Positions 6,181 to 61,400 of a stretch of 64,000 bases of DNA are shown piece after piece (position 1 is the first letter of the stretch; each line of letters starts with the position of its first letter). Below the pieces are notes generated by a model. That model had not been told where the DNA came from. It did not search any database and was given only the letters and a program-made list of their open reading frames with translations. The stretch is from Dysgonamonadaceae bacterium (lineage in GTDB: Bacteria; Bacteroidota; Bacteroidia; Bacteroidales; Dysgonomonadaceae): assembly GCA_028708095.1 (NCBI GenBank), contig JAQVZQ010000001.1:1272-65271 (forward strand). The letters are read 5' to 3'. Both the position numbers and the translations under genes were made by a program.

Positions 6181-6737
6181 ACCAGTAACACACTTTAATT
6201 ATACATTTACATCCTTGTTTCAACATTTACTGAATGTTATTTCTTCTCTTACTCCTAAACCACCCACGAAAAAATGGGATTATCTTCTGTAAGCTACTAA
6301 AAACTTACGCAATTGTTACTTTATTATTGTTTTCATAGCAAAACAAGTTGATATAGTAGCTTATTTGAAACAGACCTACCTGCGGAGCCTCCGTTGCAAG
6401 GTCTGTTGTTAACAGAGTGTTAAACGGAGCCTCCGATTAACACTCTGCTCGCACATTTGTTAAAGCGGAGCCTCCGTTTAACAGTCAACAGTGAACAGAC
6501 CGACCAACGGAGGCTCCGTTGTAAGGAAATTTGCAAAAAAACTCTTTTTTCATAAGTTTTTGGTCCGTTTTGGGTTATTTTGTTGTTAAATTGAATGATA
6601 ATGGCTCTCTACAGTTAAAATTTCGTTGTATAAAAAAATAACAAGCGATTAGAACGAAGAAAAAAGCTGCCTAAACGTCGCAATTAGATGCAAATACTTG
6701 TTTTTGGTATGAAAAATTTGTGGATAAGAGTGATTTT
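6181..6737 (+). repeat. Copy A of a conserved noncoding element of about 555 bp with a four-hairpin CGGAGSCTCCG array (array at 6369-6521)
   Basis: Aligns by eye along its whole length with 50519-51076 in the same orientation. No conserved ORF is present. Confidence 0.85.
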
Positions 6738-6958
6738 ATAAAAATATATAAGGTCATTGATATAAACCTTTCATAGGTTCAAAAAATCTAACCTTTCATT
6801 ACTGAATTTCCTGTAATGATACTCTTTGCATATTATAGAATGGAAGAGCTTGGGTTTACTTGAAGATATTAGATAACAAAATTATTTCTTTAAATACAAG
6901 TATAATTTTGTACTTTTGCAGTGTTGATTAATAAAACGTAAAGCATAAAAATAAATAG

Positions 6959-7918: not shown

Positions 7919-8017
7919 GTGTTTTTCATTTAAGTGCATGACTAAATAATAATGCATCACCAGCAACTTAGCGAGGCTTTAGGGTACTTTTCTTTTCTCA
8001 AAATATTTTTTAGATGA

Positions 8018-46377: not shown

Positions 46378-49161
46378 TTAATGAGCCTCCAGCCAATTCT
46401 CTCCATTTCCGCAATCGGTCTTCAATGGTACGTCCATTTTGTAGGCATTCTCCATCTCTTCCACCACAATTTTCTTTGCTACTTCCAATTCATCCAATGG
46501 AACATTGAAGTTCAATTCGTCATGCACCTGAAGTATCATTTTTGACTTTAGTCCTTCCTCTTCAAATCGTTTGAAGATGCGAATCATTGCCATTTTAATA
46601 ATATCAGCTGCGCTACCTTGTATGGGTGCATTAATGGCATTGCGCTCAGCATAACCTCTCACAATACCATTTCGTGAGTTGATATCGGGTAGAAATCGTT
46701 TACGACCACACACTGTCTCCACATATCCTTTCTCTTGTGCCACTTCGATGCTTTTGTCCATGTATCGCTTCACTTCTGGATATGTTTCAAAGTAACCTTC
46801 AATCAAATCCTTGGCTTCGCCACGAGGTATGGCAAGTCGTTCAGACAAACCAAATACAGAAATACCATAAATAATGCCAAAGTTAGCAGTTTTGGCTTTC
46901 TCGCGCATATCGCCTGTCGCCTCTTCTAAGGGCACTTTGTATATTTTGGCAGCAGTGGCGCTATGTATGTCCAAATCGTCGTTAAACGCCTCCGTCATGT
47001 GCTTATCTTTGCTCAAATGAGCCATAATGCGCAATTCAATCTGTGAATAGTCAGCCGAAAGGAATGTGCAACCTTCATCGGGAATAAAAACTTTTCGCAT
47101 TGCCCTACCCCGTTCGTCTCTTATGGGTATGTTTTGCAAGTTAGGGTTGGTACTGCTCAATCGTCCTGTTGAAGTAACCGTTTGATTGAACGAAGTGTGT
47201 ATTTTGTTTGATCGAGGATTAATTAGCAATGGAAATGCATCTATGTAAGTGCTTAGAAGTTTCTTTAGTCCACGATACTCTAATATTTTCTCAATGATGG
47301 GATGTTTGTTGCGCAATTTCTCCAACTCGCCCTCACTGGTGCTATATTGACCCGTCTTTGTCTTTTTCGCTTTGTCAACTATCTTCATGTGATCAAAGAG
47401 CACCTCACCTGTTTGCTTTGGAGAGTTCACATTGTATTCAATGCCCGCCATCTCAATAATCTCTGCCTCCAGTCCTATCAGCTCCTCTGTCAGCTCAACA
47501 GACAATTGTTTCAATGCATCCAAATCCAAACGGGCTCCAGTCCACTCCATATCAGCGAGTGTGTAAATAAGCGGACATTCTATTTCATAAAATAATTTGT
47601 CCAACTCATTCTCTTTTATCTCTTTTTCAAGTTTATGTTTTAGCCTCAACGTTATATCAGCATCTTCACAGGCATATTTACTCGCAATGTTTACATCTAC
47701 ATCGCGCATATTACCTTGTTTTTTCCCTTTTGGACCAATGAGTTCTTCGATGGGGACAGTTTTATATTTTAGATATGTATCAGCCAGGTAATCCATTCCG
47801 TGGCGGGTCTCAGGATTTATTAGATAGTGAGCAATCATGGTATCGAATAGGGGACCTTTCAGCATAATTTCATAATTACGAATCATCAGGATATCGTATT
47901 TAATGTTTTGTCCTATTTTCTGAATGGATTCGTTTTCAAGAAAAGGCCTTAATAGATTTAACTGCTCGGTAGCTTCTTGTTTGTTTGCCGAGAGATTTAC
48001 ATAATAAGCTTCACCTTCTTTGTATGAAAATGAGATGCCCACAATGTCGCTAAGCAAAGGATCAAGACCTGTGGTCTCGGTGTCTATGGCTACCGATTTT
48101 TGTGCACATAGTTTTTCGTTAAGCTCCTTGATGCCTTCAGTTGTGTCAATTAGTGAGTAATTGTTTTCTGTTGAATTTATATCAGAATAATTTTCTGGCA
48201 AATCATCAATTAACGGTTCATTGTCATTACTTTCAACGTCATCAAAAAGATTACCTTGACGATTAATTTTTATTTGAGGTTTGGTTGGCTCTATATTTAA
48301 AACCCTATTCAAGAGTGTTCTAAATTCCAGCTCTTCAAAAATAGTTCTAATCGCCTCTTCGTTGATAGGTTTGCGGTTAAAATTATCGATATCCACATCA
48401 ATAGGAACATCTGTTTTGATGGTCGCAAGATACTTTGAGAGTATGATTTGTTCTTTGTTTTCTTCCACATTCTTTTTGAGTGCTCCTTTTAGTTGGTCAG
48501 TGTTTTCTAACAGGTTTTCGATACTTCCAAATTCAGTAAGCAGTGTCTCTGCTCTTTTCGGACCCACACCGGGACAACCAGGTATGTTGTCAGATGCATC
48601 GCCCATCAATCCCAGCAGGTCAATCATTTGAGTAGGGGAGGAGAGCTTGTATTTTTTCATCACGCTCTCATCGTTCATAATTTCTACATCACTGTTTCCT
48701 AACCTTGGTTTATAAATGAAGATATGCTCTTCCACTAATTGTGCATAATCCTTGTCTGATGTCATCATATACACATCAAACTCATTCTTATCGACCCGCT
48801 TGGCAATTGTGCCTACAACATCATCGGCTTCATAGCCCATCACTTCCAAAACATCGATATTGTACGCTTCAATTATCTGTTTGATAATGGGCACAGAGAG
48901 CTTAATATCTTCGGGTGTTTTTTCACGTTGCGCTTTATATTGTTCAAACTCTTCGTGCCTGAATGTAAGACCAGGAGGATCGAAAGCCACAGCAATGTGA
49001 GAAGGATTTTCTTTGCGCAGAACTTCCTCCAAGGTGTTTACAAATCCGAATATGGCAGATGTATTCAGACCCTTTGAGTTGATTCTGGGGTTTCGGATAA
49101 ATGCATAAAACGAACGATAGATGAGTGCATAAGCATCAAGAAGGAAAAGTTTTTTTTTCAT
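46378..49161 (-). CDS. polA: DNA polymerase I
   Basis: 5'-nuclease N-terminus, 3'-5' exonuclease (IDTETTGLD), polymerase motifs REKAKTANFGIIYG and QVHDEL. Confidence 0.97.
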   Translation of the reverse strand: MKKKLFLLDAYALIYRSFYAFIRNPRINSKGLNTSAIFGFVNTLEEVLRKENPSHIAVAFDPPGLTFRHEEFEQYKAQREKTPEDIKLSVPIIKQIIEAYNIDVLEVMGYEADDVVGTIAKRVDKNEFDVYMMTSDKDYAQLVEEHIFIYKPRLGNSDVEIMNDESVMKKYKLSSPTQMIDLLGLMGDASDNIPGCPGVGPKRAETLLTEFGSIENLLENTDQLKGALKKNVEENKEQIILSKYLATIKTDVPIDVDIDNFNRKPINEEAIRTIFEELEFRTLLNRVLNIEPTKPQIKINRQGNLFDDVESNDNEPLIDDLPENYSDINSTENNYSLIDTTEGIKELNEKLCAQKSVAIDTETTGLDPLLSDIVGISFSYKEGEAYYVNLSANKQEATEQLNLLRPFLENESIQKIGQNIKYDILMIRNYEIMLKGPLFDTMIAHYLINPETRHGMDYLADTYLKYKTVPIEELIGPKGKKQGNMRDVDVNIASKYACEDADITLRLKHKLEKEIKENELDKLFYEIECPLIYTLADMEWTGARLDLDALKQLSVELTEELIGLEAEIIEMAGIEYNVNSPKQTGEVLFDHMKIVDKAKKTKTGQYSTSEGELEKLRNKHPIIEKILEYRGLKKLLSTYIDAFPLLINPRSNKIHTSFNQTVTSTGRLSSTNPNLQNIPIRDERGRAMRKVFIPDEGCTFLSADYSQIELRIMAHLSKDKHMTEAFNDDLDIHSATAAKIYKVPLEEATGDMREKAKTANFGIIYGISVFGLSERLAIPRGEAKDLIEGYFETYPEVKRYMDKSIEVAQEKGYVETVCGRKRFLPDINSRNGIVRGYAERNAINAPIQGSAADIIKMAMIRIFKRFEEEGLKSKMILQVHDELNFNVPLDELEVAKKIVVEEMENAYKMDVPLKTDCGNGENWLEAH

Positions 49162-49313: not shown

Positions 49314-50288
49314 ATGGATTATAAGAATCTTGCAGTAACAATAATAAGAGAGGAGTTAGAGAAATTTGATTTGCTGTATAACTCAATCAGAAGTGAGAAC
49401 CCTCATCTTCAGGAGATGGTTGAGCATATGCACAAAGCCGATGGGAAAAAGATACGCCCCATTCTTTTGCTTCTTACTGCAAAAGCACTGGGCGAGGTAA
49501 ATGATAAAACCTATCATGGTGCTGTTACTATAGAGCTTTTGCATACCGCTGCACTTATTCACGATGATGTGGTGGACGATGCTGATATGAGACGCGGACA
49601 ACCTTCACTCAATAGCATTTACGATAACCGAAAGACAGTTCTTTGTGGCGATTTTTTTCTCTCTTCTGCACTTACACAAAGTGTGCTTACTGAGGATCTG
49701 GAAATTGTATCTACTATTGCTAAGTTAGGAAAGAAATTGGCTGAAGGTGAGCTACAACAACTGTTCGTAGCTGACAATGTGATAATCGACGAAGCTGAAT
49801 ATTTCAATATTATTCGTCAAAAAACAGCTTCTCTGTTGAGTGCTTGTATGAAAATAGGTGCTCTTACGGTTGAAGCAGATAAAGAAGTGGTGGATAAATT
49901 CACAGAATTAGGCGAACATATTGGTATAAGCGTTCAGTTGCGCGATGATATTTTCGATTATTATGATGCTAATATCGGCAAACCAACTGGTAACGACATT
50001 AGAGAAGGCAAAATAACCCTGCCTTTACTGTATGCTTTCCAACACACAAGCTCAACAGATAACCAAAAGGCAAAAACCATTGTACATAACAAAGATTTTA
50101 CCGACGAGAATATCTCATACCTCATCAACTTTGCTAAAGAAAATGGTGGAATCGATTATACCTATTCTTTTTTAGAGAAATCAACCGATAAAGCAAAACA
50201 AATTGTATCGGATATGAAATCTATTTCGAATAACATGAAGGAAGCTTTCTTTTCGGTAATACAATACCTGAAAGAGAGAAAATATTGA
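49314..50288 (+). CDS. Polyprenyl diphosphate synthase (IspB-like)
   Basis: DDVVDDADMRRG and DDIFDY aspartate-rich motifs. The ATG at 49314 is preferred. Confidence 0.88.
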   Translation: MDYKNLAVTIIREELEKFDLLYNSIRSENPHLQEMVEHMHKADGKKIRPILLLLTAKALGEVNDKTYHGAVTIELLHTAALIHDDVVDDADMRRGQPSLNSIYDNRKTVLCGDFFLSSALTQSVLTEDLEIVSTIAKLGKKLAEGELQQLFVADNVIIDEAEYFNIIRQKTASLLSACMKIGALTVEADKEVVDKFTELGEHIGISVQLRDDIFDYYDANIGKPTGNDIREGKITLPLLYAFQHTSSTDNQKAKTIVHNKDFTDENISYLINFAKENGGIDYTYSFLEKSTDKAKQIVSDMKSISNNMKEAFFSVIQYLKERKY

Positions 50289-50518
50289 TGTAGTAGAGTA
50301 GGGGGTTGACGCTCTCTTATTACCTTTGTTTATACTTCTACTGCTCACAATCAATAATTTTATTTATCAAAAACTATTGGAGTGCCAAATCACAACTTAT
50401 TGGGTAATCTACTATAAGTATTCAAATCTATTCATACTGAAATTGCACTTATCACATCCATTGTTACAACATTTTGTAAAGGATGCTACCTGTAAACGAT
50501 CGTAAAGTTAGTGATACT

Positions 50519-51076
50519 ACCAGCTAACACTTCTTTTTTCTTCAATTACCTCCTTGCTTCCGCATTTACTGAACGTTATTTCCACATTTACTCCTAAATA
50601 CCCACGAAACAATGGGAATATCTACTGTGAGCTACTAAAAACTTACGGTATTGTTACTCCATTATTGTTTTTATAGCAAAACGTAGTGATATAGTAGTTT
50701 TTTTAGAACAGACCAGCCAGCGGAGCCTCCGTTACAAGGTCTGTTGTTAACAGTGTGTTAAACGGAGCCTCCGTTTAACACACTGCGCACACATTTGTTA
50801 AAGCGAAGCCTCCGTTTAACAGCCAATAGTGAACAGACCAACCAACGGAGGCTCCGTTGTAAGGAAATCTGCAAAAAAGCCCTTATTTCATATGTTTTTG
50901 GTCTGTTTATAGTTATTTTAATGTTAAAATGAATGATAATGGCTCCCTCCATCTTAAATTTCGTAGTATTAGAACCCTAACAAGTGATTAGAACCAAGAA
51001 AAAACTCTCTAACCATACCATTTAGGTGCAAAAACTTGCATTTAGCAATGAAAAACCTATGGATAAGGAAGATTTG
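50519..51076 (+). repeat. Copy B of the conserved noncoding element of about 555 bp (hairpin array at 50706-50859)
   Basis: Collinear with 6181-6737 and has the same four CGGAGSCTCCG hairpins. Confidence 0.85.
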
Positions 51077-51161
51077 AAGAGTTAATGTGTTAGCTTTAAG
51101 GTTAGTTTGAGTATATTTGTGTTCGGAAATCAATGCAAACTCAAATTTTAAGTCTGAAAAC

Positions 51162-51953
51162 ATGCAACAAATACAAGAAATCAGTCTCAGCAAACTACTA
51201 AAACTAGAACTTCCTCAGTTTGTAAAGAAAGTAACCAATTGCATTGAGGAGCACAATCCGGAAGCACTAAAATTACAGGATGCATTAAATTTATTGATTG
51301 AGCAACGCTCCAAGATGAAGCTTTTGATTGCCCCTTATGGCAAGCATCCTTTGACTGATGATATACAACAACTTCATTTAGAGAGACTAAAGTATGTTGC
51401 AGCTATCAACATGCATATGAAGCTGTTGAACAAAGTAAATTATGAAGGTACAGAAAGTTTAATAATTACTGCGAAAGCATTGGTGTACGGACACTTTAAC
51501 GAACTAAGAAGAAACAATCAAGTTACTATTCATCAAACAATTATTGCTTTTTTCTTACGTTTAAAAGAAAACCCTGAAATTAAGGATGCTTTGGTTGATC
51601 TGGGCTTTGAGCATTATCTAAACAAATTAGAAGAAACAAACAATCAATGTTATGAGCTGGATATGGAGAGGAATAGGCTCAAATCTAAAAGGCTTAAAAT
51701 AGATAGTGGCGCTATACAAAAGGAGGCACAACAAGTATTGAGGGCAATATTCGAGCAGATAAACTTTTATCAGGTTACCTACAAAGAATTGGATTATGGG
51801 CCACTGATTGCTCAATTGAACGAATTGATAGTAAAGTTTTCGAGCTTAATACGGACACGAGCAACGGCTAATAAAACCCGTAAAATAAAATCTAAGGTTA
51901 AAAACGCTTTATCCCCACCACTACTACAAGTATGGATGAGGAACAAAACATGA
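51162..51953 (+). CDS. Hypothetical helical protein (DUF6261-like by recollection)
   Basis: About 263 aa, helical, no catalytic motifs. It starts about 85 bp after repeat copy B. Confidence 0.5.
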   Translation: MQQIQEISLSKLLKLELPQFVKKVTNCIEEHNPEALKLQDALNLLIEQRSKMKLLIAPYGKHPLTDDIQQLHLERLKYVAAINMHMKLLNKVNYEGTESLIITAKALVYGHFNELRRNNQVTIHQTIIAFFLRLKENPEIKDALVDLGFEHYLNKLEETNNQCYELDMERNRLKSKRLKIDSGAIQKEAQQVLRAIFEQINFYQVTYKELDYGPLIAQLNELIVKFSSLIRTRATANKTRKIKSKVKNALSPPLLQVWMRNKT

Positions 51954-52278: not shown

Positions 52279-54351
52279 TTACTTATTCAACGCACTCATC
52301 AACTCTCTTTTCATGGTATCCACGCCTGGAAAACCAACAGTATGAAATGAATGATTCCCTTCTCTATCGATGATAAGATAGGTTGGCACTCCTCGTGCAT
52401 TCAGGCTCTCGCTCAGATAATCCCATTGCACCTGGTTCACCCTGTAGTGTTCACCTTTCAGGTCGGTAATCATATTCTTCCATGTATTCTCGGGGGAGTT
52501 TTCCCCTGCTAGATATAGGAATACCAAATCTTTTTCATCGGCAAGTTGTGCTTTTAGAGGCTCCATAGCTTTGTTTGCCATAATACATGGTCCACACCAT
52601 GTTGCCCACACATCCACTAAGATAACCTTTCCTTTAAATGGCTTCAACATTTCTACAAATAGTTCCTCATCTTCATTGGTGGGAGTGTTTAATACTGTAA
52701 ACCCCGTTTTCTTTTTATTCTCTTCAATTTTTGCCAATAGAGCCTCGTTCTCGTCTAATAGAGCCTGTTTGATAACCTCTGGGAAATCCGATAGCTCTTC
52801 TTTTTGTGCATCAGCAAGTGGATTGAAATCAATAATTCTACGCCCTATTTCCTGAGCATTAATCAAATCAAACATTAGAGCATTGTCTGTGTTCAAAATT
52901 TGTGAAAGAAAACCTACACCCATTTGTTTTTTCATATACTCATCAGTTATTGAATGATATTTATTAAATATAGACTCAATGGAAGCAGCTTTTTTGAATT
53001 CTTTGTTATTCTTTTGTGCTGTGATGTACTCTTTGAAAAAAATACGATCTTCTTCTGATACATCATCGTGTTGCGACAAATAACGAACAACCACAAAAGG
53101 ATCATTAGATTGACTGCGTGCATATCCCAAACTACGGATACTATTTCCAACATTAGGAACAAGCAGTATTTCGGGGTCATTGTAAGGAATTAGTTGGTAG
53201 TAATTTAAGAAGTCTTCAGCTCTATTTGCAGGCTTATATGCCTTTTTTGCCTCCTCCCTTGATAGTTGATGCTTTTTAGCGAATGCATCTTGAAGAAAGT
53301 AATCGGCAAACTCAATCTTTTCTTGTAATGCAAAAGCATCAAGAGCGCTCATTATTCTTTTAGCAAGAGGACTAATGTCAAGTTCTTTGTTATGTGCAAC
53401 ATTTTCGTGATATTTCTCTGTCATAAATGCCTTGTAATCATTTACATCCATATCAGGAATAATGCTTGAATAGTCTTCTTGTATGGCATTTGATATATCC
53501 TCATTGGCAAGATCGTTATTCAGCTTAGCCATATAACCAGCATAGTAATATTTTTTTCCATAAGGTTCTTGTTCTTTCAATAGGCGACTATTTTGACGAT
53601 AGAACTCAGGAAGATTGATTATAATACTTGACTCCTTTCCAGGCGCTACTTTTATAGGAACACGAGCAGCTTTTGATGCAATAAAAAGATTGGTAGGACT
53701 ATAAATAGGAACATTTATCGTAAACGCCCCCTTATCATCTATATCCAGAGGAATAGCGTTCTCTTTTCCTGTGATTGGATTGTTGTATATCACTGTCCAA
53801 TCAAGGGCGCCAGAAACATATCTCCATATTTCGCCGCTTACGGTGGCATCGCCTTTCTCCCATCCTAGCTGTAGGTCAGTTTCCTCTTTAGGTTTCTTTG
53901 TAAACTTGCGAGAAAGTTTAGGTTGTGGCATTTGTTTGTTTACAAGGTCTACTCCCCAAATCTTAAAACATTCCTCGCAGTCACCCTCTATAAAATCGAA
54001 TGTTTTAGTATTGACAGGTAACGGTTCAAACAGCAGTTTAAACGATGCTTCACCCGACTCAGGCATCCAGAAAAGCGAATCCAGATCGATGCCCTCTCCG
54101 TTGTTAATCATATACTTCTTACCATCAGCGTATAAATAGCTGTCCGAAGTGACTTTAATCCAGTATCTTGGTCTGTAAAAAGCCTCCACATCAAGCACGG
54201 TGACCGAGTCGGTGAGCGTTACTTTTGCGATTTCTAACGAACGGGTGTTGGCAAAAGCTGTTGGTGGCAACTCTACCGATTTTGATTCTGGCTGTGATGT
54301 ACAGGCTGTTAGTGCAAGCAGTACAATTACGAAATAAAATACTTTTTTCAT
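52279..54351 (-). CDS. TlpA-like thiol:disulfide oxidoreductase lipoprotein with a large N-terminal extension
   Basis: Lipobox LALTAC and a C-terminal thioredoxin fold VILVDVWATWCGPC. Confidence 0.8.
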   Translation of the reverse strand: MKKVFYFVIVLLALTACTSQPESKSVELPPTAFANTRSLEIAKVTLTDSVTVLDVEAFYRPRYWIKVTSDSYLYADGKKYMINNGEGIDLDSLFWMPESGEASFKLLFEPLPVNTKTFDFIEGDCEECFKIWGVDLVNKQMPQPKLSRKFTKKPKEETDLQLGWEKGDATVSGEIWRYVSGALDWTVIYNNPITGKENAIPLDIDDKGAFTINVPIYSPTNLFIASKAARVPIKVAPGKESSIIINLPEFYRQNSRLLKEQEPYGKKYYYAGYMAKLNNDLANEDISNAIQEDYSSIIPDMDVNDYKAFMTEKYHENVAHNKELDISPLAKRIMSALDAFALQEKIEFADYFLQDAFAKKHQLSREEAKKAYKPANRAEDFLNYYQLIPYNDPEILLVPNVGNSIRSLGYARSQSNDPFVVVRYLSQHDDVSEEDRIFFKEYITAQKNNKEFKKAASIESIFNKYHSITDEYMKKQMGVGFLSQILNTDNALMFDLINAQEIGRRIIDFNPLADAQKEELSDFPEVIKQALLDENEALLAKIEENKKKTGFTVLNTPTNEDEELFVEMLKPFKGKVILVDVWATWCGPCIMANKAMEPLKAQLADEKDLVFLYLAGENSPENTWKNMITDLKGEHYRVNQVQWDYLSESLNARGVPTYLIIDREGNHSFHTVGFPGVDTMKRELMSALNK

Positions 54352-54419
54352 GTTACGGTGTTCTTAATTATTAACTGAATTGTGGCAGTGTGCGAATTAA
54401 ATATAGTAGCATACATGCT

Positions 54420-54896
54420 TTATGGTAGATTGTTTATGTCTTTTGCAAACTTATGAGAGAGCTTCTGTACTGGTAGTTATTTGTTTACTAAATCAATTCC
54501 CCAAACCTTAAAACAATCCCTACAATCGCTCTCTATAAAGTCGAATGTTTCCGTATTTAGGGGCAATGGTTCAAATAGTAGCTTAAACGATGCTTTCGCG
54601 GTTTTAGGCATATAGAAGAGCGAGTCTAAATCGATGCCCTCACCGCTACGTATCATATACTTCTTACCGTCGGCTTGCAAATAGCTGTCCGATGCTATTC
54701 TAATCCACAATTTAGGTATGTAAAATGCATTCACATCAAGCACAGTTAACGAATCGGAGAGGGTTACCTTCGAGATTTCTATCGACCGGGTATTGGAAAA
54801 AGCTGCGGGTGGCATTTTTACCGTTTTTGTTGTCAGTTGTGATTTGCAAGCTGTAAATGCAAGCAAGGCAATTAGAAAATAAAGTGCTTTTTTCAT
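54420..54896 (-). pseudogene. Truncated tandem paralog of the N-terminus of the TlpA-like gene
   Basis: The 139-aa ORF is collinear with residues 1-139 of 52279..54351. Homology continues past the stop (VNK*LPVQKLSHKFAKD versus VNKQMPQPKLSRKFTKK). Confidence 0.75.
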
Positions 54897-54908
54897 GTTA
54901 TTGTGTTT

Positions 54909-57900
54909 TTAATCTAATGTTTTGGTAGTCGTTGGTATAAACTTAACTTTATTCTTTAATGTGATTATTACCACTCCATTTTTTCCTTCATCCGCATACT
55001 TTGATATAGCTTCTTCATTTTTCAAAACAGAGATAGATTCAATATCAGATTGGTTTATATCCTCTATATCAAATCCTTTTGGCATTTTTTCGCCGTCAAC
55101 TATGACTAAAGGCTTGTTAGTAATAAGTTTATCTTTTATGAGAGTAGTAACTCTCCCGTTAAGGTTATTCGTAGCTTCGTCCTTGTTTAATCTAAAAACT
55201 ACAGGTATCGTTAACCTCACATTCACAGCCTTTCCTTTTTGCATTCCAGGCTTCCATTTTGGCATTGCTTCTATCACTCTAATTGCTTCTGCATATAAAG
55301 AAGGATCTGGTCCTCTCACTATTTGAGCATCGGATATACTACCGTCTTTGTTTACAATAAAAGAGGTAATAACCCGTCCTTGAATTTTATTTCTCTTAGC
55401 TTGCAATGGATAAATAATATTGTCAGCAAAATATTTCTCTAATGCAGGCTTCCCTCCAGGAAATTCAGGTTGTTCCTCTACTGCTACAAAAACATCTTCT
55501 CTCTCTTCTTTTATTTTAGCAATATTATTTTTTACTGAAGGTGTAAACTTAACACCCTTCTTTAAAGTAACTAATATAACCCCATTTTTTCCTTCTTCCC
55601 CATACTCCTTTATGTCCGAATCATCTTTTAGAATAGAAAAAGACTCTATATCTTCAGGATTAATATCCAACATATGAAAATCACTCCCCATTTTCACACC
55701 ACCAATCAGGACTAAGGGATTTCCATGTCTTTCCACTATATTTTTTCTTGTTGTGTCTTTTTCACCTTCCTCTAACTTAAACAAAACTGGCAGTGTATAC
55801 CTCACTTTTACAGGCGCCCCTCTTTGCGTACCAGGGCTCCATTTAGGCATTGTTTTTATTACTCTGACAGCTTCTGCATCAAGCAGTGGATGAAGGCTGC
55901 GCACGACCTTTATGTTAGAAAGGCTGCCATCTTTGTTGACGATGAAATCGACAACTACTCGCCCTTCAATATCACTGTTTGCAAGCTCAGCTGGAAAACG
56001 AGTGTTCTCTGCAACGAAAGCCATTAAAGCTTGCATACCGCCTGGAAACTCAGGTTGATCTTCCACAACCACAAATACATCATCATCAACCTTCTTCTTC
56101 TCAGCGACAAAGGATTTAGTATAAACAATAACAACTCCATTCTTTCCTTCATCTCCGTAAATTGCTAAGGCTGACTTATCTTTTAAAATAGAGACTGATT
56201 CAATATTCTCTTTAATTTGATTTAAGTCAAATCCTTTCCCCATTTTCACATCATCGATAACGTAAAGAGGCTCACCATTTCCAAACTTCTTTGCTAATGC
56301 TTGAGGAGTTGCTTCTTCCATCGAACCGTAACCACGCACAATTACTTCATTCTTATCTTCATTATCTTTTTTACTATTATCTGAAACTTTCGTTTCTGAA
56401 GCTTCTTTTGTAGAAATCATTACAGCCCCATTTTTCCCCTCTTCTCCATAAGTTGCCATGGCTGCTTCCTTTTGATAAATTGTTGTATGTTCAATATCTG
56501 ATCTGTCGATTTTGCTCATATCAAATTCTTTATCCATCTTCACGCCATCAACTATGAATAGTGGCTTGCCATCTCCCGTTTTATCGGCTATGGACAATAC
56601 GGTATATCCTCTCATTGCAACATCAAAAGAGGCTTTTTCACCATCTAAACGAAAAGCAAATTGTGCATTGTATTTTACTTTTAGAGGTTCATCATCTTCT
56701 GTGTATGTGAATTGTTTCAATTTAGGCATTGCGTTGATTACTCTAATCGCTTCTTGATTTAAGGATGGAGAGAGACCTACTTCAATTTTAGAATTAATAA
56801 TTGAACCATCTTCTTCGATTATAAAACTAGCAATAACATCTCCATGTACTCCATTCTCTTTTGCATCCTGAGGGTATTTCACTTCTGATTTGAGAGCAGC
56901 AGCCAACTTATCTAAGTTTTTAGTTACTTCATGAAATCTAGATTTATCTTTAGAATCTTTATTCTCTATTTTCACAGGCTCTTGTTGCTGTTCATTCTGT
57001 TGAGCATACACGCTGTTTGCTGTAATCAGCAGCAGTGCCAATGGCAATATACTCAAGTACTTTGTCAGCTTTCGCATCGGTGATTTCTCACTGTTCATCA
57101 TTATAATTCTCTGTTTTAGTTGTGATACATTGAAGTTATTCACTATCTGAACTGCAGTTTCATGATTAGTCATTTGTAATAGATGGTATTGGTATTCGGT
57201 AGATTCTACTCCTTCTTGCAGCACGGCTTGGTCTGCCAAGTATTCTAAGTTGATGGCGATGTCTCGCTTCATCACCCACACAACAGGATTCCACCAAAAG
57301 GCTATGCGAAGTAGCTCTGCCAATAGTATGTCGAGTGAGTGCCACTGACGAACATGTGTATGCTCGTGCAGTAGAATCTGTTTCAACTCTTTTTCTGTAT
57401 GTGTATCTGTATGGATAAATATCCAGCTAAAGAATGAAAAGGGGGTTATCTCATCTTTTAGTTGATGGAAAAGATAACCAAACAGGCTTCTTTTCTCGCT
57501 TCGCGATTTAATACGGATGATTGAGAAGAGTTGGCACAAGAAGCGCAAGCTTAAGAGAGACACTCCAATTAACAGAATGTTTTTACCAATTAGCATCCAG
57601 TCAAAGGGCGTGGTTGCTTCTGCTGCATCGTCAACTATCATCTCTCCCATGGATATCTCTCCCATGGATATCTCTGCTATATATACAGAGGTTTCTATTG
57701 CAACTGTTTCGGGTGTCATGTTGATTAAGTTGCCCAGCATAGTCACATTCATAATAGGGTAGGAGAGTGAGAAAATGATTGCCGACAAAAAGTAGTACCG
57801 CCTTATTCGTATAAAAGTGTCTTTGCGAAAGAACAGCAGATAGAGCAAATAGAACATTGCCAGTGCTATATTTACTTTTACGAAATATATAAGTAGTGTT

Positions 57901-57911
57901 TCCATTGTCAT
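54909..57911 (-). CDS. BlaR1-type M56 peptidase sensor fused to three TonB-C domains and four plug-like modules
   Basis: HEHTHVRQWH zinc motif, 4 TM, TonB_C repeats (..QPEFPGG..RV..F.VNKDGS..) alternating with PL.V.DG.KM..ES.S.LK...YG.EGKNGV modules. Confidence 0.85.
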   Translation of the reverse strand: MTMETLLIYFVKVNIALAMFYLLYLLFFRKDTFIRIRRYYFLSAIIFSLSYPIMNVTMLGNLINMTPETVAIETSVYIAEISMGEISMGEMIVDDAAEATTPFDWMLIGKNILLIGVSLLSLRFLCQLFSIIRIKSRSEKRSLFGYLFHQLKDEITPFSFFSWIFIHTDTHTEKELKQILLHEHTHVRQWHSLDILLAELLRIAFWWNPVVWVMKRDIAINLEYLADQAVLQEGVESTEYQYHLLQMTNHETAVQIVNNFNVSQLKQRIIMMNSEKSPMRKLTKYLSILPLALLLITANSVYAQQNEQQQEPVKIENKDSKDKSRFHEVTKNLDKLAAALKSEVKYPQDAKENGVHGDVIASFIIEEDGSIINSKIEVGLSPSLNQEAIRVINAMPKLKQFTYTEDDEPLKVKYNAQFAFRLDGEKASFDVAMRGYTVLSIADKTGDGKPLFIVDGVKMDKEFDMSKIDRSDIEHTTIYQKEAAMATYGEEGKNGAVMISTKEASETKVSDNSKKDNEDKNEVIVRGYGSMEEATPQALAKKFGNGEPLYVIDDVKMGKGFDLNQIKENIESVSILKDKSALAIYGDEGKNGVVIVYTKSFVAEKKKVDDDVFVVVEDQPEFPGGMQALMAFVAENTRFPAELANSDIEGRVVVDFIVNKDGSLSNIKVVRSLHPLLDAEAVRVIKTMPKWSPGTQRGAPVKVRYTLPVLFKLEEGEKDTTRKNIVERHGNPLVLIGGVKMGSDFHMLDINPEDIESFSILKDDSDIKEYGEEGKNGVILVTLKKGVKFTPSVKNNIAKIKEEREDVFVAVEEQPEFPGGKPALEKYFADNIIYPLQAKRNKIQGRVITSFIVNKDGSISDAQIVRGPDPSLYAEAIRVIEAMPKWKPGMQKGKAVNVRLTIPVVFRLNKDEATNNLNGRVTTLIKDKLITNKPLVIVDGEKMPKGFDIEDINQSDIESISVLKNEEAISKYADEGKNGVVIITLKNKVKFIPTTTKTLD
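56991..57812. repeat. 822-bp tract identical to 59131-59952 (offset 2140 bp)
   Basis: Line-by-line identity; the first mismatch is at 57813/59953. It covers the sensor/peptidase half of both blaR1 paralogs. Confidence 0.9.
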
Positions 57912-57938
57912 ACTATTTAAATGCAGTTATATGCTGTT

Positions 57939-58000
57939 CTATTTCCTGTTCTTCCCAATGTAGTTCAATAATATCAGTCAATTATTCAATCGTTACCACA
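57939..58000 (-). pseudogene. Remnant of the 3' end of a second blaI copy
   Basis: At the same 2140-bp offset as the blaI stop (60079). It reads ..LILLNYIGKNRK* versus blaI ..EIIELIEKNRK*. Confidence 0.6.
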
Positions 58001-58044: not shown

Positions 58045-60051
58045 TTATAGCTTATTATCACCCTTATCCTCTAAACTCAATCTGAATATCACAGGCATTT
58101 TGAAACTTACATTAACAGCTTCTTCTTTTTGCGTTCCTGGTTTCCATAAAGGCATCATTTCAATTACTCTAATGGCCTCAGCATCTAACAATGGGTCAAC
58201 GCCTCGTACAATTTCAATGTCTGAAACACTGCCATCTTTATTCACTATAAAAGAGGTGATAACTCTACCTTCAATTCCATTTTTATGAGCTTCTACAGGG
58301 TATTTGATATTGTCTCCCAAAAACTTCATCAATGCCTGAACTCCTCCTGGAAATTCGGGTTGATTTTCTACTACCATGAAAACATCATCTCTATCACTTT
58401 TTCTTTTGCTATCTATTGTTTCAGGTTTTTTAGTTGGAGTTTTAGTTTTGTCCTTTAAAGTAATTAATATAACTCCATCTTTTCCTTCCTCTCCATATAC
58501 TTCTAAAGCTGATTTATCTTTTAAAACAGATATAGACTCTATTTTTGTTGGTATAATTGAGTTCAATCTGAATCCTTTTATCATTTTCACATCATCAACA
58601 ATGTAAAGAGGATTGCCGTTTTCAAGTTTTTTTATTAAAGATTCTCGTGAGGCTTTATTCATAGAGTCGTATCCACGCACTATAACCTCATCTCTTTCTT
58701 TGTCTTTTAAAATCTTAATGCTTACAGTAGTCATTTCTGACGTATCCTCATTCTCATCTAATTTGAAAGAAATTGGAAGCGTGTACCTTACTCTCACCCT
58801 CTCGTCTCTTTGTAATCCAGGATTCCATTTTGGCATTGCTTCAATAATCCTAATTGCCTCTTTATCTAAAGAGGGGTCCACACCACGTACAATTTGAACA
58901 TCAGATAGAGAGCCATCTTTTTCAATTATATAATTAACTATCACTCGTCCTTGTATGCCATTTTCTTTTGCAATTACAGGATACTTCATTTCTTTTTCTA
59001 TGAACTCCATCATTGCCTTTACATTTCCCTTAAAACTTGGTTGTTTTTCTACCACCACAAATATCTCATCGCTCTTGCTCTCTTTCTTTACAGGGTCTTG
59101 CTCTTGTGGAGGTTTCGCTTCTTCTTTCGGTTCATTCTGTTGAGCATACACGCTGTTTGCTGTAATCAGCAGCAGTGCCAATGGCAATATACTCAAGTAC
59201 TTTGTCAGCTTTCGCATCGGTGATTTCTCACTGTTCATCATTATAATTCTCTGTTTTAGTTGTGATACATTGAAGTTATTCACTATCTGAACTGCAGTTT
59301 CATGATTAGTCATTTGTAATAGATGGTATTGGTATTCGGTAGATTCTACTCCTTCTTGCAGCACGGCTTGGTCTGCCAAGTATTCTAAGTTGATGGCGAT
59401 GTCTCGCTTCATCACCCACACAACAGGATTCCACCAAAAGGCTATGCGAAGTAGCTCTGCCAATAGTATGTCGAGTGAGTGCCACTGACGAACATGTGTA
59501 TGCTCGTGCAGTAGAATCTGTTTCAACTCTTTTTCTGTATGTGTATCTGTATGGATAAATATCCAGCTAAAGAATGAAAAGGGGGTTATCTCATCTTTTA
59601 GTTGATGGAAAAGATAACCAAACAGGCTTCTTTTCTCGCTTCGCGATTTAATACGGATGATTGAGAAGAGTTGGCACAAGAAGCGCAAGCTTAAGAGAGA
59701 CACTCCAATTAACAGAATGTTTTTACCAATTAGCATCCAGTCAAAGGGCGTGGTTGCTTCTGCTGCATCGTCAACTATCATCTCTCCCATGGATATCTCT
59801 CCCATGGATATCTCTGCTATATATACAGAGGTTTCTATTGCAACTGTTTCGGGTGTCATGTTGATTAAGTTGCCCAGCATAGTCACATTCATAATAGGGT
59901 AGGAGAGTGAGAAAATGATTGCCGACAAAAAGTAGTACCGCCTTATTCGTATGAAAGTGTCTTTGCGAAAGAACAACAGATAGAGCAAATAGAACAATGC
60001 CAGTGCTATGTTTACTTTAGCGAGGTATATAAGTAGAGTTTCCATTGTCAT
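58045..60051 (-). CDS. BlaR1-type M56 peptidase sensor fused to two TonB-C domains and one plug-like module
   Basis: Residues about 21-330 are identical to those of 54909..57911; the first 20 residues differ at three positions. The C-terminal array is different. Confidence 0.85.
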   Translation of the reverse strand: MTMETLLIYLAKVNIALALFYLLYLLFFRKDTFIRIRRYYFLSAIIFSLSYPIMNVTMLGNLINMTPETVAIETSVYIAEISMGEISMGEMIVDDAAEATTPFDWMLIGKNILLIGVSLLSLRFLCQLFSIIRIKSRSEKRSLFGYLFHQLKDEITPFSFFSWIFIHTDTHTEKELKQILLHEHTHVRQWHSLDILLAELLRIAFWWNPVVWVMKRDIAINLEYLADQAVLQEGVESTEYQYHLLQMTNHETAVQIVNNFNVSQLKQRIIMMNSEKSPMRKLTKYLSILPLALLLITANSVYAQQNEPKEEAKPPQEQDPVKKESKSDEIFVVVEKQPSFKGNVKAMMEFIEKEMKYPVIAKENGIQGRVIVNYIIEKDGSLSDVQIVRGVDPSLDKEAIRIIEAMPKWNPGLQRDERVRVRYTLPISFKLDENEDTSEMTTVSIKILKDKERDEVIVRGYDSMNKASRESLIKKLENGNPLYIVDDVKMIKGFRLNSIIPTKIESISVLKDKSALEVYGEEGKDGVILITLKDKTKTPTKKPETIDSKRKSDRDDVFMVVENQPEFPGGVQALMKFLGDNIKYPVEAHKNGIEGRVITSFIVNKDGSVSDIEIVRGVDPLLDAEAIRVIEMMPLWKPGTQKEEAVNVSFKMPVIFRLSLEDKGDNKL
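59131..59952. repeat. Second copy of the 822-bp identical tract
   Basis: See 56991-57812. Confidence 0.9.
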
Positions 60052-60078
60052 ACTATTTAAATACAGTTATATGCTGTT

Positions 60079-60441
60079 CTATTTCCTGTTTTTTTCTATG
60101 AGTTCAATAATCTCTGTCAATTCTTCGGTGGTTATTTTCTGTTCTTTGGCAAAGAAAGATACCAACTCTTTGTACGAATCGTCGAAATAGCTCTTTACTA
60201 AGTCTGAAAGAAAATGACGTTTATAGGCTGCTTCAGTAATTTTAGGAGAATATACTTTCACATTGCCATACTTTCGCATGGATAGATAATTTTTCCTTTC
60301 TAAATTATTGAAAATAGATGCTACAGTGGTGTAGGGTGGTTTTGGATCATCCATTTTGTCCACTACATCTTTTATAGCACACTTTTCGAGCTCCCAAACG
60401 AGGAGCATAACAGTTTCTTCTTGAGGTGTTAATGGTTCCAT
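60079..60441 (-). CDS. BlaI/MecI/CopY-family winged-helix repressor
   Basis: 120 aa; N-terminal LTPQEETVMLLVWE.. winged helix. It lies directly upstream of blaR1. Confidence 0.85.
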   Translation of the reverse strand: MEPLTPQEETVMLLVWELEKCAIKDVVDKMDDPKPPYTTVASIFNNLERKNYLSMRKYGNVKVYSPKITEAAYKRHFLSDLVKSYFDDSYKELVSFFAKEQKITTEELTEIIELIEKNRK

Positions 60442-60789: not shown

Positions 60790-61400
60790 AAAAATCTTTT
60801 CTAAACATTTCTTCAATGGAAGATTTCATTGTCAACAGTTGAAAATTGAATCTTCAACCGAAGATTTGACGAAAAAGTGTTGAAAATCGAATTCGCCACA
60901 GTTTTTCTGACAAACAACAGCCGAATTTCAAATCTTTGATGGTTTCTCTCTCAACAGAGAGGCTAAATTCAAATCTACCGTGAAAAATTTAACGAACAAG
61001 AGAAGAAAATCAGATTTACTGCAATTTCTCCTTTATTTATCTCTCGAAAATCCAATTTACTTGAAACAAAAGGGCATTTGTGCTTTTCTAAACATTTCTT
61101 CAATGGAAGATTGCGTTTTCATCTCTTGTTCGTCCAATCTTCGACGGAAGAAATGATTATTGTCTTTCTAAAAGCATTTTTTTTCTAAAATCTATCAGGA
61201 AAGGTGCATTGTGCGACAATTTTTAAAAGCCGATACCAATCTCAATCGATAAATGGGCACTAATTTTTGTAGGATGCAAGAATCAACATTTCTGACTCCA
61301 TTTTTTTGTGGTGGAAAACAAAATCGACTTTTGCAACAGCAATCTTTCTGTGTGTTTGCTATATTCATCTGTTGAATTTATAATCTTTGGTGGAAAATGT
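60790..61400. repeat. Cluster of degenerate hairpin repeats of about 40 nt (REP/BIME-like), same family as 7.98-8.35 kb
   Basis: Recurrent words: CAACAGTTGAAAATYGAAT, GAAGATT/AATCTTC, TTCTAAACATTTCTTCAATGGAAGATT (twice). By eye, 60862-60900 matches the reverse complement of 8265-8303 at most positions. Confidence 0.7.

What the first reader, a model, noticed from the sequence alone, without database searches (positions are those of the whole stretch)
50706..50859. Four-hairpin array displaying a CGGAGSCTCCG core, with a compensatory change and a conserved alternative helix
In both copies (A 6369-6521, B 50706-50859), four hairpins each present the near-palindrome AACGGAG[C/G]CTCCGTT.
- Hairpin 2 is a stem of 16-17 bp. 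Copy A has A6416:T6444 where copy B has T50754:A50782, a compensatory double substitution.
- AACAGACC occurs twice (A 6369-6376 and 6494-6501; B 50707-50714 and 50832-50839). GGTCTGTT occurs once (A 6400-6407; B 50738-50745).
- So hairpin 1 and a long-range helix enclosing hairpins 2-3 are mutually exclusive, giving a switch-like topology.
- Alternatively, the four 7-1-7 palindromes could be operator sites for a dimeric DNA-binding protein.
Basis: partly seen in the sequence, partly recalled or inferred. Interest (0 to 1): 0.7.

Follow-up and report, generated by a model that had tools for sequence, protein, structure and literature searches.

The report
Palindrome array inside dispersed intergenic repeat
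The four "hairpins" are real, but they are four evenly spaced copies of one DNA palindrome forming the best-conserved centre of a ~560-base non-coding repeat scattered through this Bacteroidales genome, so this is a REP/MITE-type repeat, not a demonstrated RNA switch.

Summary
Eight CGGAGSCTCCG cores occur only in the two arrays (0.06 expected by chance), spaced 42/41/42 nt. The A:T to T:A double change in hairpin 2 is real.

The array is the centre of a ~560-580 nt non-coding unit. Window copies are 6181-6759 and 50519-51098. A third paralogue lies in a metagenome contig, and a strain variant has an IS1380-family element inserted in hairpin 2. Short-read assemblies break in the array. Relatives lack the unit downstream of ispB. 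There is no Rfam, phage or plasmid match.

The array is 92-95% identical between copies with no indels, against 73-83% for its flanks.

RNA covariation is negligible: 1 compensated, 2 broken and 43 invariant of 46 pairs. The "alternative helix" follows from repeated self-complementary units.

The same 15-mer, AACGGAGSCTCCGTT, forms phased arrays next to unrelated genes in two Prevotella MAGs, in one of them inside another ~580-nt dispersed repeat. Core-only relatives occur in other Bacteroidota.

Best reading: a REP/BIME- or MITEPgRS/BrickBuilt-like interspersed repeat whose palindromes are protein-recognised DNA or hairpin sites. No partner protein, terminal inverted repeats or target-site duplications were found. 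Moderate interest.

The parts
6181..6759 (+). Repeat unit, copy A (leader, array, tail), between a MarR-family gene (5091-5705) and yrbG (6959-7918)
   Evidence: Self-BLAST gives 6181-6736 against 50519-51075 at 82.8%. The nhmmer profile covers 6182-6759. Alignment. In a near-identical strain (L132) divergence starts at about 6150.
50519..51098 (+). Repeat unit, copy B, between ispB (49314-50288) and a DUF6261 gene (51162-51953)
6369..6521 (.). Palindrome array, copy A: four units with cores at 6383-6393, 6425-6435, 6466-6476 and 6508-6518
50706..50859 (.). Palindrome array, copy B (the finding): cores at 50721-50731, 50763-50773, 50804-50814 (CGAAG variant) and 50846-50856
50751..50785 (.). 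Unit 2, a perfect 17-1-17 palindrome (A: 6413-6447). It carries the compensated T50754:A50782 change.
   Evidence: In strain variant L132 an IS1380-family element is inserted at the position equivalent to 6441/6442.
50707..50745 (.). Unit 1: AACAGACC ... core ... GGTCTGTT (A: 6369-6407). It is an inverted copy of the unit-4 repeat type.
50832..50907 (.). Unit 4 (AACAGACC-N6-core-TTGTAAGG) plus the downstream GGTCTGTT at 50900-50907. This span includes the promoter-like box TATGTTTT at 50891-50898 (A: TTTG 6530-6533 and TAAGTTTT 6553-6560).
   Evidence: The promoter reading is an inference from the Bacteroides -33 TTTG / -7 TAnnTTTG consensus, matched 7 of 8.
50553..50705 (+). Leader of copy B (A: 6215-6368), 80-83% identical between copies. 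It has weak hairpins with a few G.U-compatible changes on the + strand.
50860..51098 (+). Tail of copy B (A: 6522-6759), 73-79% identical between copies. It contains a 16-23 codon ORF (B 50929-50991; A 6591-6641) of doubtful significance.
   Evidence: codon comparison by eye from the alignment (recorded in note).

Best explanation
The array is the conserved core of an interspersed, non-coding intergenic repeat of about 560-580 nt, built as leader, four palindromic units, then tail. The host is an uncultured Dysgonomonadaceae (Bacteroidales) bacterium.

**Shown:**
- At least three paralogous loci with unrelated flanks.
- Absence from the orthologous ispB site in relatives.
- Assembly breaks in the array.
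- A patch of divergence confined to the unit between two otherwise identical strains, which looks like exchange with a further copy.
- Much stronger conservation of the array than of its flanks, and fixed spacing.
- The same 15-bp palindrome in phased arrays in two Prevotella MAGs.

**Inferred mechanism:** the units act at the DNA level. Each AACGGAG-S-CTCCGTT palindrome, as duplex or as an extruded or single-stranded hairpin, is a recognition site for a sequence-specific protein. The protein would be a dimeric binder or a hairpin-recognising enzyme of the kind that maintains REP/BIME or MITE elements.
- The 41-42 bp phasing puts the four sites on one face of the helix.
- Palindrome-templated correction keeps the arms complementary.
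- Any effect on neighbouring genes (outward promoter-like boxes, RNA hairpins if read through) is secondary to the element's own maintenance.
For: **Multi-copy and dispersed.**
- Copies A and B are in the window.
- Copy C is in metagenome contig L131 next to a DUF4886 gene.
- Copy D (L132) is the A locus of a strain that is 100% identical up to about 6150. It then diverges 8-24% per 50-nt window, lowest within the array, and its leader is not closer to B or C.
- Short-read contigs end at positions equivalent to 6456-6464 and 50868.

**Lineage-specific.** Six loci from relatives with IspB 82-86% identical have no unit and no core downstream of ispB.

**Not a composite transposon.** The 20 genes scanned between 20.2 and 45 kb include dnaX, ychF and hcp, plus a type II restriction-modification pair; polA lies at 46378-49161. 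No transposase or integrase was found among them.

**Constraint on the array.**
- Array 91.5-94.8% identical, against leader 80-83% and tail 73-79%.
- No gap in 213 aligned columns.
- Palindrome arms vary at 4 of 92 columns, spacers at 11 of 61, Fisher p = 0.01.

**Same 15-mer elsewhere.**
- Prevotella MAG RGIG5089 has perfect sites every 44 nt, with degenerate ones at 22 nt, beside LptF/G, RsmA, GH43, an AAA-ATPase and BspA-LRR genes.
- Prevotella MAG UMGS937 has a palindrome pair in the middle of a ~580-nt repeat present in at least 5 loci.
- Palindromy extends at least 2 nt beyond the core in 79% of Bacteroidota units, against 15% of non-Bacteroidota hits. The flanking pairs differ by lineage: AA/TT, TG/CA, GC/GC.

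**Published precedents in Bacteroidales.**
- P. gingivalis MITEPgRS has tandem internal repeats between direct-repeat regions (PMC2575886); these are 41-nt repeats according to PMC4596501.
- BrickBuilt has a leader, 23-nt repeats and a tail. It is always intergenic and has bidirectional promoter activity (PMC4596501).
- Bacteroidetes RAYT subclass 2.6 has atypical REPs lacking GTAG (PMC6006769).
Against: - No trans-acting protein was identified.
- No consistent terminal inverted repeats or target-site duplications occur at the unit ends.
- The centre is better conserved than the ends, the reverse of a classical MITE.
- RayT genes recovered from related Bacteroidales are flanked by a different palindrome, CCTAACAGGTTT...AAACCTGTTAGG. 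That palindrome is absent from this window.
- Only 3-4 copies are in hand, and the copy number in the genome is unknown.
- The cross-genome sharing of the 11-nt core is partly by construction, because the search pattern was that core.
Confidence: 0.5

Rival explanations
1. Host cis-regulatory module. The four phased palindromes are operators for a dimeric host transcription factor that binds cooperatively. It would control outward-facing promoters on both sides of the array, with the module duplicated to several loci.
For: - The site is a 7-1-7 palindrome with a free centre base, and the 41-42 bp spacing has no indels.
- Conserved TA[AT]GTTTT boxes lie about 35 nt outside the last core on the + strand in all copies. 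A TACGTTTT box lies on the minus strand side in B and C.
- The central 220 nt is an imperfect dyad.
- Prevotella RGIG5089 arrays end 45-61 nt upstream of TAnnTTTG boxes of the next gene at two loci (L081, L022).
- BrickBuilt shows bidirectional promoter activity (PMC4596501).
Against: - Flanking genes are functionally unrelated, in this species and in Prevotella.
- No regulator gene travels with the array. A MarR gene sits near copy A only.
- The promoter boxes match the Bacteroides consensus imperfectly, and the left one is lost in copy A.
- Palindromy of up to 17 bp per arm, with a compensated change 13 nt from the centre, exceeds what a 15-bp operator needs.
Confidence: 0.2
2. The unit is transcribed and acts as RNA without being a ligand switch. 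The long palindromic rod or hairpins would work as a processing, stability or termination element, as described for REP and ERIC sequences in enterobacterial mRNAs. Alternatively the tail encodes a small RNA or peptide.
For: - Folding is very stable: -91 to -92 kcal/mol, z about -9.5.
- Arms are more conserved than spacers.
- There is one compensated pair.
- Three one-sided changes in a leader helix give G.U pairs on the + strand only.
- All three copies have the upstream gene on the same strand.
Against: - A terminator-like hairpin directly follows ispB, before copy B.
- No terminator-like site lies within either unit.
- The leader folds weakly, -13 kcal/mol for 165 nt.
- No transcript data are available.
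- The stability is what any DNA palindrome array would give.
Confidence: 0.15
3. Riboswitch-like RNA switch. Hairpin 1 and a long-range helix enclosing hairpins 2-3 would alternate to control downstream genes.
For: - AACAGACC occurs twice and GGTCTGTT once or twice, allowing exclusive pairings.
- The long-range helix appears in the predicted minimum-energy fold.
- There is one compensated pair.
Against: - 43 of 46 pairs are invariant and 2 are broken; covariation is not above shuffles.
- The alternative helices are explained by unit 1 and unit 4 being inverted copies of one repeat.
- In copies A and C the second GGTCTGTT is mutated without compensation.
- Downstream genes are unrelated, there is no expression platform and no Rfam match.
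- The same palindrome occurs in Prevotella without the AACAGACC/GGTCTGTT elements.
Confidence: 0.07

Closest known systems
MITEPgRS (MITE464) of Porphyromonas gingivalis
   Same: - A Bacteroidales host and non-coding, multi-copy DNA.
- The interior is built of repeat regions at both ends in direct-repeat arrangement, with tandem repeats of 41 nt between them (PMC2575886; period quoted in PMC4596501).
- Here unit 1 and unit 4 bracket two inner units, with a 41-42 nt period.
   Different: - MITEPgRS has IS5-family (ISPg1) terminal inverted repeats and up to 14 inner repeats.
- No terminal inverted repeats, target-site duplications or cognate IS were found here.
- Its repeat sequence is only in a figure and could not be compared.
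- The resemblance of AACAGACCTTGCAA (unit 1, minus strand) to GAGACCTTTGCA is a lead only.
BrickBuilt MITE of P. gingivalis
   Same: - A leader (up to 285 nt), tandem short repeats and a tail (up to 318 nt).
- Always intergenic, about 19 copies, imperfect repeats.
- Bidirectional promoter activity (PMC4596501).
- The overall size and layout match this unit.
   Different: - BrickBuilt repeats are 23 nt, without spacers, and not described as palindromes.
- It has IS5-like terminal inverted repeats in its intact copies.
- It was reported only in P. gingivalis and P. gulae.
REP/BIME elements with RAYT (TnpA_REP) transposases
   Same: - Short extragenic palindromes in clusters with fixed linkers, dispersed through the genome.
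- Targets for IS insertion.
- Bacteroidetes RAYT subclass 2.6 has atypical REPs without the GTAG foot (PMC6006769).
- RayT genes flanked by palindrome clusters exist in close relatives of this organism.
   Different: - There is no GT[AG]G foot.
- The RayT genes recovered carry a different REP (CCTAACAGGTTT...).
- No RayT lies in the window.
- A 1-nt centre and a 15-mer shared between bacterial families are unusual for REPs, which co-evolve with their RAYT.
ERIC/IRU and other long imperfect-palindrome repeats
   Same: An imperfect palindrome of 130-220 nt in intergenic DNA that would form a long RNA hairpin if transcribed.
   Different: These are enterobacterial and unrelated in sequence. ERIC has no internal array of identical sub-palindromes.
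Iteron or centromere arrays such as sopC of plasmid F (from memory: 43-bp repeats, each with a 7-bp inverted repeat bound by SopB)
   Same: A period of about 42 bp, with each repeat carrying a short inverted repeat bound by a dimer.
   Different: - The locus is chromosomal and present at several sites.
- No partition or replication gene is adjacent.
- There is no plasmid or phage match.

Membership tests
REP/BIME (REPtron) | Short imperfect palindromes, extragenic, repeated in the genome, often in clusters | tested here: met
   There are four palindromic units per array. Arrays occur at 3 paralogous loci plus one strain variant, all intergenic.
REP/BIME (REPtron) | Conserved 5' GT[AG]G foot next to the hairpin | tested here: not met
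   No GTAG or GTGG lies at the foot of any unit. Bacteroidetes subclass 2.6 REPs also lack it (PMC6006769), so this does not exclude an atypical REP.
REP/BIME (REPtron) | A cognate RAYT gene flanked by the same palindromes | tested here: inconclusive
   The window has no HUH/Y1 ORF. RayT homologues from related Bacteroidales (L137, L141-L151) are flanked by CCTAACAGGTTT-N-AAACCTGTTAGG, not by this palindrome. That REP is absent from the window. The rest of this genome could not be read.
MITE (including MITEPgRS and BrickBuilt) | Small, non-coding, multi-copy, intergenic | tested here: met
   The unit is about 560-580 nt. No protein homologue exists for the one long ORF crossing it. Three loci are known.
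MITE (including MITEPgRS and BrickBuilt) | Terminal inverted repeats matching those of an IS | tested here: not met
   No inverted repeat is shared by the ends of A, B and C. A 9-nt pair occurs in B only. The internal AACAGACC/GGTCTGTT resembles IS5-family ends, which is a lead only.
MITE (including MITEPgRS and BrickBuilt) | Target-site duplications | tested here: not met
   No direct repeat flanks the unit in A, B or C.
MITE (including MITEPgRS and BrickBuilt) | Presence/absence polymorphism between genomes | tested here: inconclusive
   The unit is absent downstream of ispB in relatives. However, the neighbouring genes also differ there, so no clean empty site is available.
MITE (including MITEPgRS and BrickBuilt) | Internal tandem repeats between a distinct leader and tail | tested here: met
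Riboswitch or cis-regulatory RNA switch | Conserved secondary structure supported by covariation | tested here: not met
   There is 1 compensated pair of 46, with 2 broken. 165 of 500 shuffles reach the observed score.
Riboswitch or cis-regulatory RNA switch | Recurrent position upstream of functionally related genes, with an expression platform | tested here: not met
   Downstream genes are yrbG, a DUF6261 gene and none identified. No terminator-like site lies in or after the array.
Riboswitch or cis-regulatory RNA switch | Match to a described RNA family | tested here: not met
   Rfam 15 gives no hit at gathering threshold. At permissive E-values only noise appears, the best being a plant miRNA model at 30 of 150 bits.
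Operator, iteron or centromere array | Repeated palindromic sites in helical phase | tested here: met
   Spacing is 42/41/42 bp in three copies with no indels.
Operator, iteron or centromere array | Cognate DNA-binding, replication or partition gene adjacent, or a plasmid or phage context | tested here: not met
   A MarR gene sits near copy A only. There is no plasmid, phage or viral-contig match.
Operator, iteron or centromere array | Demonstrated protein binding | not testable with these tools
   This needs EMSA or a DNA pull-down.

The most novel reading that the evidence does not exclude
CGGAGSCTCCG-core palindromes, phased at about 41-44 bp, would mark an undescribed Bacteroidota-wide system. 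A conserved but so far unknown protein would recognise these palindromes and build or maintain arrays at many intergenic sites. Candidates are a new hairpin-specific HUH or recombinase enzyme, or a nucleoid- or insulator-type dimeric binder. The arrays seen in Dysgonomonadaceae and Prevotella (full 15-mer), and the core-only arrays in Tannerella, Chitinophagaceae and another Bacteroidia MAG, would then be products of one mechanism, possibly including P. gingivalis MITEPgRS.
Probability: 0.2. Interest if true: 0.6.

Novelty: new variant of a known kind. Interest (0 to 1): 0.35.

Why it matters
- Interspersed palindromic repeats in Bacteroidales are barely catalogued. They break assemblies, attract IS insertions and can carry promoters.
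- This family shows that a striking "four-hairpin switch" can be a repeat-element core, which is a useful warning for screens for non-coding RNAs.
- If the 15-bp palindrome has a dedicated binding protein or mobilising enzyme, that would add a REP/RAYT-like system, or a nucleoid-organising site, for a phylum central to gut and digester microbiomes. It would also give a handle on how such arrays influence neighbouring promoters.

Tried and rejected
1. **Rfam.** Gathering and permissive thresholds gave nothing.
2. **Phages, plasmids and viral contigs.** No homologue was found. The two viral pattern hits are Gly/Ser-type coding repeats.
3. **Using the protein database as an index.** The 64-aa minus-strand ORF across the array was searched to find more copies; there was no hit, so it is not a gene.
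4. **Composite transposon bounded by copies A and B.** Rejected. The 20 genes scanned between 20.2 and 45 kb are housekeeping genes plus one restriction-modification pair, and none is a transposase or integrase. The restriction enzyme is of the EcoO109I family, whose RGGNCCY site (from memory) does not occur in the core.
5. **RAYT link.**
   - A RayT family was found in close relatives, but with a different REP, and that REP is not in the window.
   - The Omnitrophica RAYT locus L104, hit by the core pattern, has a differently centred palindrome (CGGAGGC-GGA-GCCTCCG), so that match is coincidental.
6. **Terminal inverted repeats and target-site duplications at the unit ends.** None is shared between copies.
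7. **CRISPR-like array.** Rejected because the "spacers" are conserved between paralogous copies.
8. **Small ORF in the tail.** There are 5 synonymous against 7 non-synonymous codon differences, and the start codon is TTG in two of three copies. It is not convincing.
9. **Leader as a structured RNA.** The fold is weak (-13 kcal/mol), with only G.U-type support.
10. **Literature search for the motif.** The only hits are cloning linkers.

Full report
**1.

- CGGAGSCTCCG occurs eight times in the 64-kb window, all in the two arrays. The starts are 6383, 6425, 6466 and 6508 in copy A, and 50721, 50763, 50804 (one mismatch) and 50846 in copy B. Shuffles give 0.06 matches.
- Spacing is 42/41/42 nt in both copies.
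- Hairpin 2 is a 17-1-17 palindrome, perfect in B and with one mismatch in A.
- The A6416:T6444 against T50754:A50782 double change is real.
- AACAGACC and GGTCTGTT lie where stated. B has one more GGTCTGTT at 50900-50907.
- As a single strand the region folds with z of about -9.5. The predicted fold is a nested rod in which core 1 pairs with core 4, not four independent hairpins.

**2. The array is the centre of a larger repeat**

- Self-comparison shows that 6181-6736 matches 50519-51075 at 83%. A profile extends this to 6182-6759 and 50521-51098.
- The two flanks are not related to each other beyond this unit.
- Within the unit, the array is 91.5-94.8% identical between copies. The leader is 80-83% and the tail 73-79%.
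- The array and the first 53 nt after it align without a single gap.
- Palindrome arms vary at 4 of 92 columns and spacers at 11 of 61 (p = 0.01).
- On the minus strand, unit 1 reads AACAGACCTTGCAACGGAGGCTCCG. It is therefore an inverted copy of unit 4 (AACAGACCGACCAACGGAGGCTCCG). Units 2 and 3 are a second type (TGTTAAA-core-TTTAACA).
- The central ~220 nt (6340-6560) is an imperfect dyad overall.

**3. Further copies and behaviour as a repeat**

- The organism is an uncultured Dysgonomonadaceae bacterium.
- A pattern scan of metagenome contigs found a third full paralogue, C (L131:1271-1835). It is 83-85% identical to A and B and sits downstream of a DUF4886 gene.
- The scan also found D (L132), which is the A locus of another strain.
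  - D is 100% identical to the window from 5700 to about 6150. It then diverges 8-24% per 50-nt window up to the IS junction at 6441, least within the array, and its leader is not closer to B or C.
  - I read this as replacement by a further copy, so more than three copies probably exist.
  - In D an IS1380-family element (DDE_Tnp_1_4) is inserted directly after ...CGGAGCCTCCGATTAAC, between the equivalents of 6441 and 6442.
- Independent short-read assemblies end inside or right after the array, at the equivalents of 6456-6464 and 50868. This is typical of a repeat.
- Six loci from relatives with IspB 82-86% identical have neither the unit nor the core downstream of ispB.
- The 20 genes scanned between 20.2 and 45 kb include dnaX, ychF and hcp, plus a restriction-modification pair; polA lies at 46378-49161. 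None is a transposase or integrase, so the pair of copies does not look like the ends of a composite transposon.
- There is no match in Rfam, phage genomes, plasmids or viral contigs.

**4. Test of the RNA-switch reading**

- On the three full copies, the four-hairpin model has 46 pairs. Of these, 43 never vary, 1 is compensated and 2 are broken (A6436 in A and D; G to A at 50806 in B).
- 165 of 500 shuffles reach the observed covariation.
- RNAalifold prefers other pairings, core 1 with core 4 and core 2 with core 3, because every core complements every other. Mutually exclusive helices are therefore inherent to such an array and are not evidence of a switch.
- The second GGTCTGTT is mutated in A and C without compensation.
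- A terminator-like hairpin follows ispB, before copy B. No terminator-like site lies in or after either array.
- Downstream genes are unrelated.
- A single A:T to T:A exchange 13 nt from the dyad centre is also what palindrome-templated correction (template switching in quasi-palindromes, established knowledge) produces in DNA.
- The leader folds weakly. Three one-sided changes keep G.U pairs on the + strand only, which is a weak hint of + strand transcription.

**5. The same palindrome elsewhere**

It also returned Bacteroidota loci.

- **Prevotella MAG RGIG5089.** Arrays of exactly AACGGAGSCTCCGTT, with perfect sites every 44 nt and degenerate ones in between at 22 nt. They lie 60-300 nt from LptF/G, RsmA, GH43, AAA-ATPase/PDDEXK and BspA-LRR genes.
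- **Prevotella MAG UMGS937.** Two perfect 15-mers 44 nt apart sit in the middle of a ~580-nt repeat present in at least five loci, beside PheS, EngA and other genes.
- **Core only, with different flanks.** Arrays occur in a Chitinophagaceae MAG (41-nt period), a Tannerella MAG (41 nt; GCCGGAGGCTCCGGC) and a Bacteroidia MAG. In the last, each unit has its own self-complementary flanks, for example CCAATTTGTG-core-CACAAATTGG.
- **Extension of palindromy.** It reaches at least 2 nt beyond the core in 79% of Bacteroidota units, against 15% of the other hits.
- **Caveat.** Sharing of the 11-nt core is by construction of the search. The AA/TT extension, the AT-rich intergenic setting and the embedding in genome-specific dispersed repeats are not.

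**6. Search for a partner enzyme**

- A relative (L137) carries a RayT/TnpA_REP gene. Its family has thousands of Bacteroidota members, several of them named RayT by JGI.
- In L137 and in three further homologues fetched at 11 loci (L141-L151), the gene is flanked on both sides by CCTAACAGGTTT-N3-5-AAACCTGTTAGG. This is a textbook REPtron.
- That REP is absent from this window, and those loci have no CGGAGSCTCCG core.
- A RAYT partner for the present palindrome is therefore neither shown nor excluded.
- Published work states that Bacteroidetes RAYT subclass 2.6 has atypical REPs without the GTAG foot (PMC6006769, text and Table S1).

**7. Closest published architecture**

- P. gingivalis MITEPgRS has direct-repeat regions at both ends, with up to 14 tandem repeats between them (PMC2575886); the repeats are 41 nt according to PMC4596501.
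- BrickBuilt has a leader of up to 285 nt, 23-nt tandem repeats and a tail of up to 318 nt. It has 19 copies, is always intergenic and has bidirectional promoter activity (PMC4596501).
- Both have IS5-family terminal inverted repeats. I found no terminal repeats shared by A, B and C and no target duplications.
- Unit 1's AACAGACCTTGCAA resembles the IS5-type end GAGACCTTTGCA listed in that paper. I record this as a lead only.

**8. Most likely mechanism**

- **Shown:** this is an interspersed, lineage-restricted, non-coding repeat. Its palindromic array is under stronger constraint, in sequence, symmetry and spacing, than its flanks.
- **Inferred:** the palindromes are recognised as DNA, either duplex or extruded/single-stranded hairpin, by a sequence-specific protein that maintains or spreads the element, in the manner of REP/BIME or MITE systems. 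Four sites 41-42 bp apart would lie on one helical face.
- **Promoter-like boxes.** TTTG/TCTG-N19-TA[AT]GTTTT lies about 35 nt outside the last core on the + strand in all copies. TACGTTTT lies on the minus-strand side in B and C. These match the Bacteroides -33/-7 consensus (established knowledge) imperfectly. They suggest outward transcription as a side effect, as in BrickBuilt.
- **Confidence:** about 0.5 for this reading, 0.2 for a host operator module, 0.15 for a non-switch RNA role and under 0.1 for a riboswitch-like switch.

**9. Limits**

- Only 3-4 copies are available.
- The whole genome could not be searched.
- The genome-collection scan was truncated.
- There are no transcript or binding data.
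- The cross-phylum picture rests on a handful of MAGs.

**10. Verdict**

- The RNA-switch interpretation is not supported.
- The DNA-site alternative is plausible, but within a repeat-element frame.
- This is a new variant of a known kind (interspersed palindromic repeat) and of moderate interest.

Noticed in passing
L132:3546-5221 (insertion point equivalent to window 6441/6442): An IS1380-family element (DDE_Tnp_1_4; its ORF is split at 4656/4666) is inserted directly after the core of hairpin 2 in a strain otherwise identical to the window. The palindrome may be an insertion target.
   Followed up: partly
window 6150-6441 against L132:3250-3543: Two strains are 100% identical over the 450 bases examined immediately upstream (5700-6149), and nearly all of the 39 mismatches in the 3.5-kb alignment fall at 6150-6441. 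They differ by 8-24% per 50 nt inside the repeat unit, lowest within the array. The variant leader is not closer to copies B or C, which suggests gene conversion from an unseen copy.
   Followed up: partly
L137:7500-8975; L141-L151: RayT (TnpA_REP) genes in related Bacteroidales are flanked on both sides by the REP CCTAACAGGTTT-N3-5-AAACCTGTTAGG. In L137 these sit in ~200-nt tandem modules. In L142 an IS110-family gene lies immediately downstream of the truncated REP, the IS apparently being inserted within the palindrome.
   Followed up: partly
L135:2869-2950; L137:5020-5260; L138-L140: Relatives carry a different small repeat downstream of ispB, AACAGGTCACTCCAACGGAGTT, as an inverted pair about 200 nt apart. 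Its 5' part resembles unit 4 of the array (AACAGACCAACCAACGGAG).
   Followed up: no
window 6591-6641 and 50929-50991; L131 ~1686-1757: A 16-23 codon ORF in the tail, (M)NDNGSL[QH]LKF[RC][CS]I..., has several synonymous differences between copies. The start codon is TTG in two of three copies, and the synonymous excess is not significant.
   Followed up: partly
window 32717-32789, 33004-33076, 60796-60869, 61083-61156 (weakly 8004-8076): This is another intergenic repeat family: paired ~73-nt modules exactly 287 nt apart at two loci. Each module has inverted arms (TTCTTACGC...GCGTAAGAA or TTCTTCAATGGAAGA...) and ends in AATGTTTTGCAAAA.
   Followed up: no
window 56980-57995 / 59120-60134; 53887-54368 / 54433-54913: A 1-kb duplication, 97.6% identical, lies inside two adjacent BlaR1-like Peptidase_M56/TonB_C genes. 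A 76% duplicate of the N-terminal part of a thioredoxin-like lipoprotein forms a separate 139-aa ORF.
   Followed up: no
window 28047-29451 (-): A type II restriction-modification pair, EcoO109I-family endonuclease plus N6/N4 methylase, lies next to tRNA-Arg (27639-27711). Its expected odd-centred site (RGGNCCY for EcoO109I, from memory) does not occur in the array core.
   Followed up: partly
L036, L039, L057, L082, L117 (Prevotella MAG UMGS937): A ~580-nt dispersed repeat occurs in at least 5 loci. It has two perfect AACGGAGSCTCCGTT sites 44 nt apart at its centre, extra CCTCCGTT half-sites and a CAAAAGTG-G-CACTTTTG palindrome in its leader.
   Followed up: partly
L116:7565-7860 (Tannerella MAG); L016:2390-2600 (Chitinophagaceae MAG): These are 41-nt tandem repeats, each carrying a CGGAGGCTCCG-core palindrome plus a second palindrome (TTCTCCGGCTGGAGAA, or CCGTCAAATGACGG). 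They may be relatives of the 41-nt repeats of P. gingivalis MITEPgRS.
   Followed up: no
L104:5690-6480 (Omnitrophica MAG): A RAYT-like HUH gene is flanked by CGGAGGC-GGA-GCCTCCG hairpins. It matched the core pattern by coincidence of sequence, because the palindrome has a different centre.
   Followed up: partly
window 50300-50317: A terminator-like hairpin with a T-rich tail lies 12 nt after the ispB stop codon. Read-through from ispB into copy B is therefore not expected.
   Followed up: no
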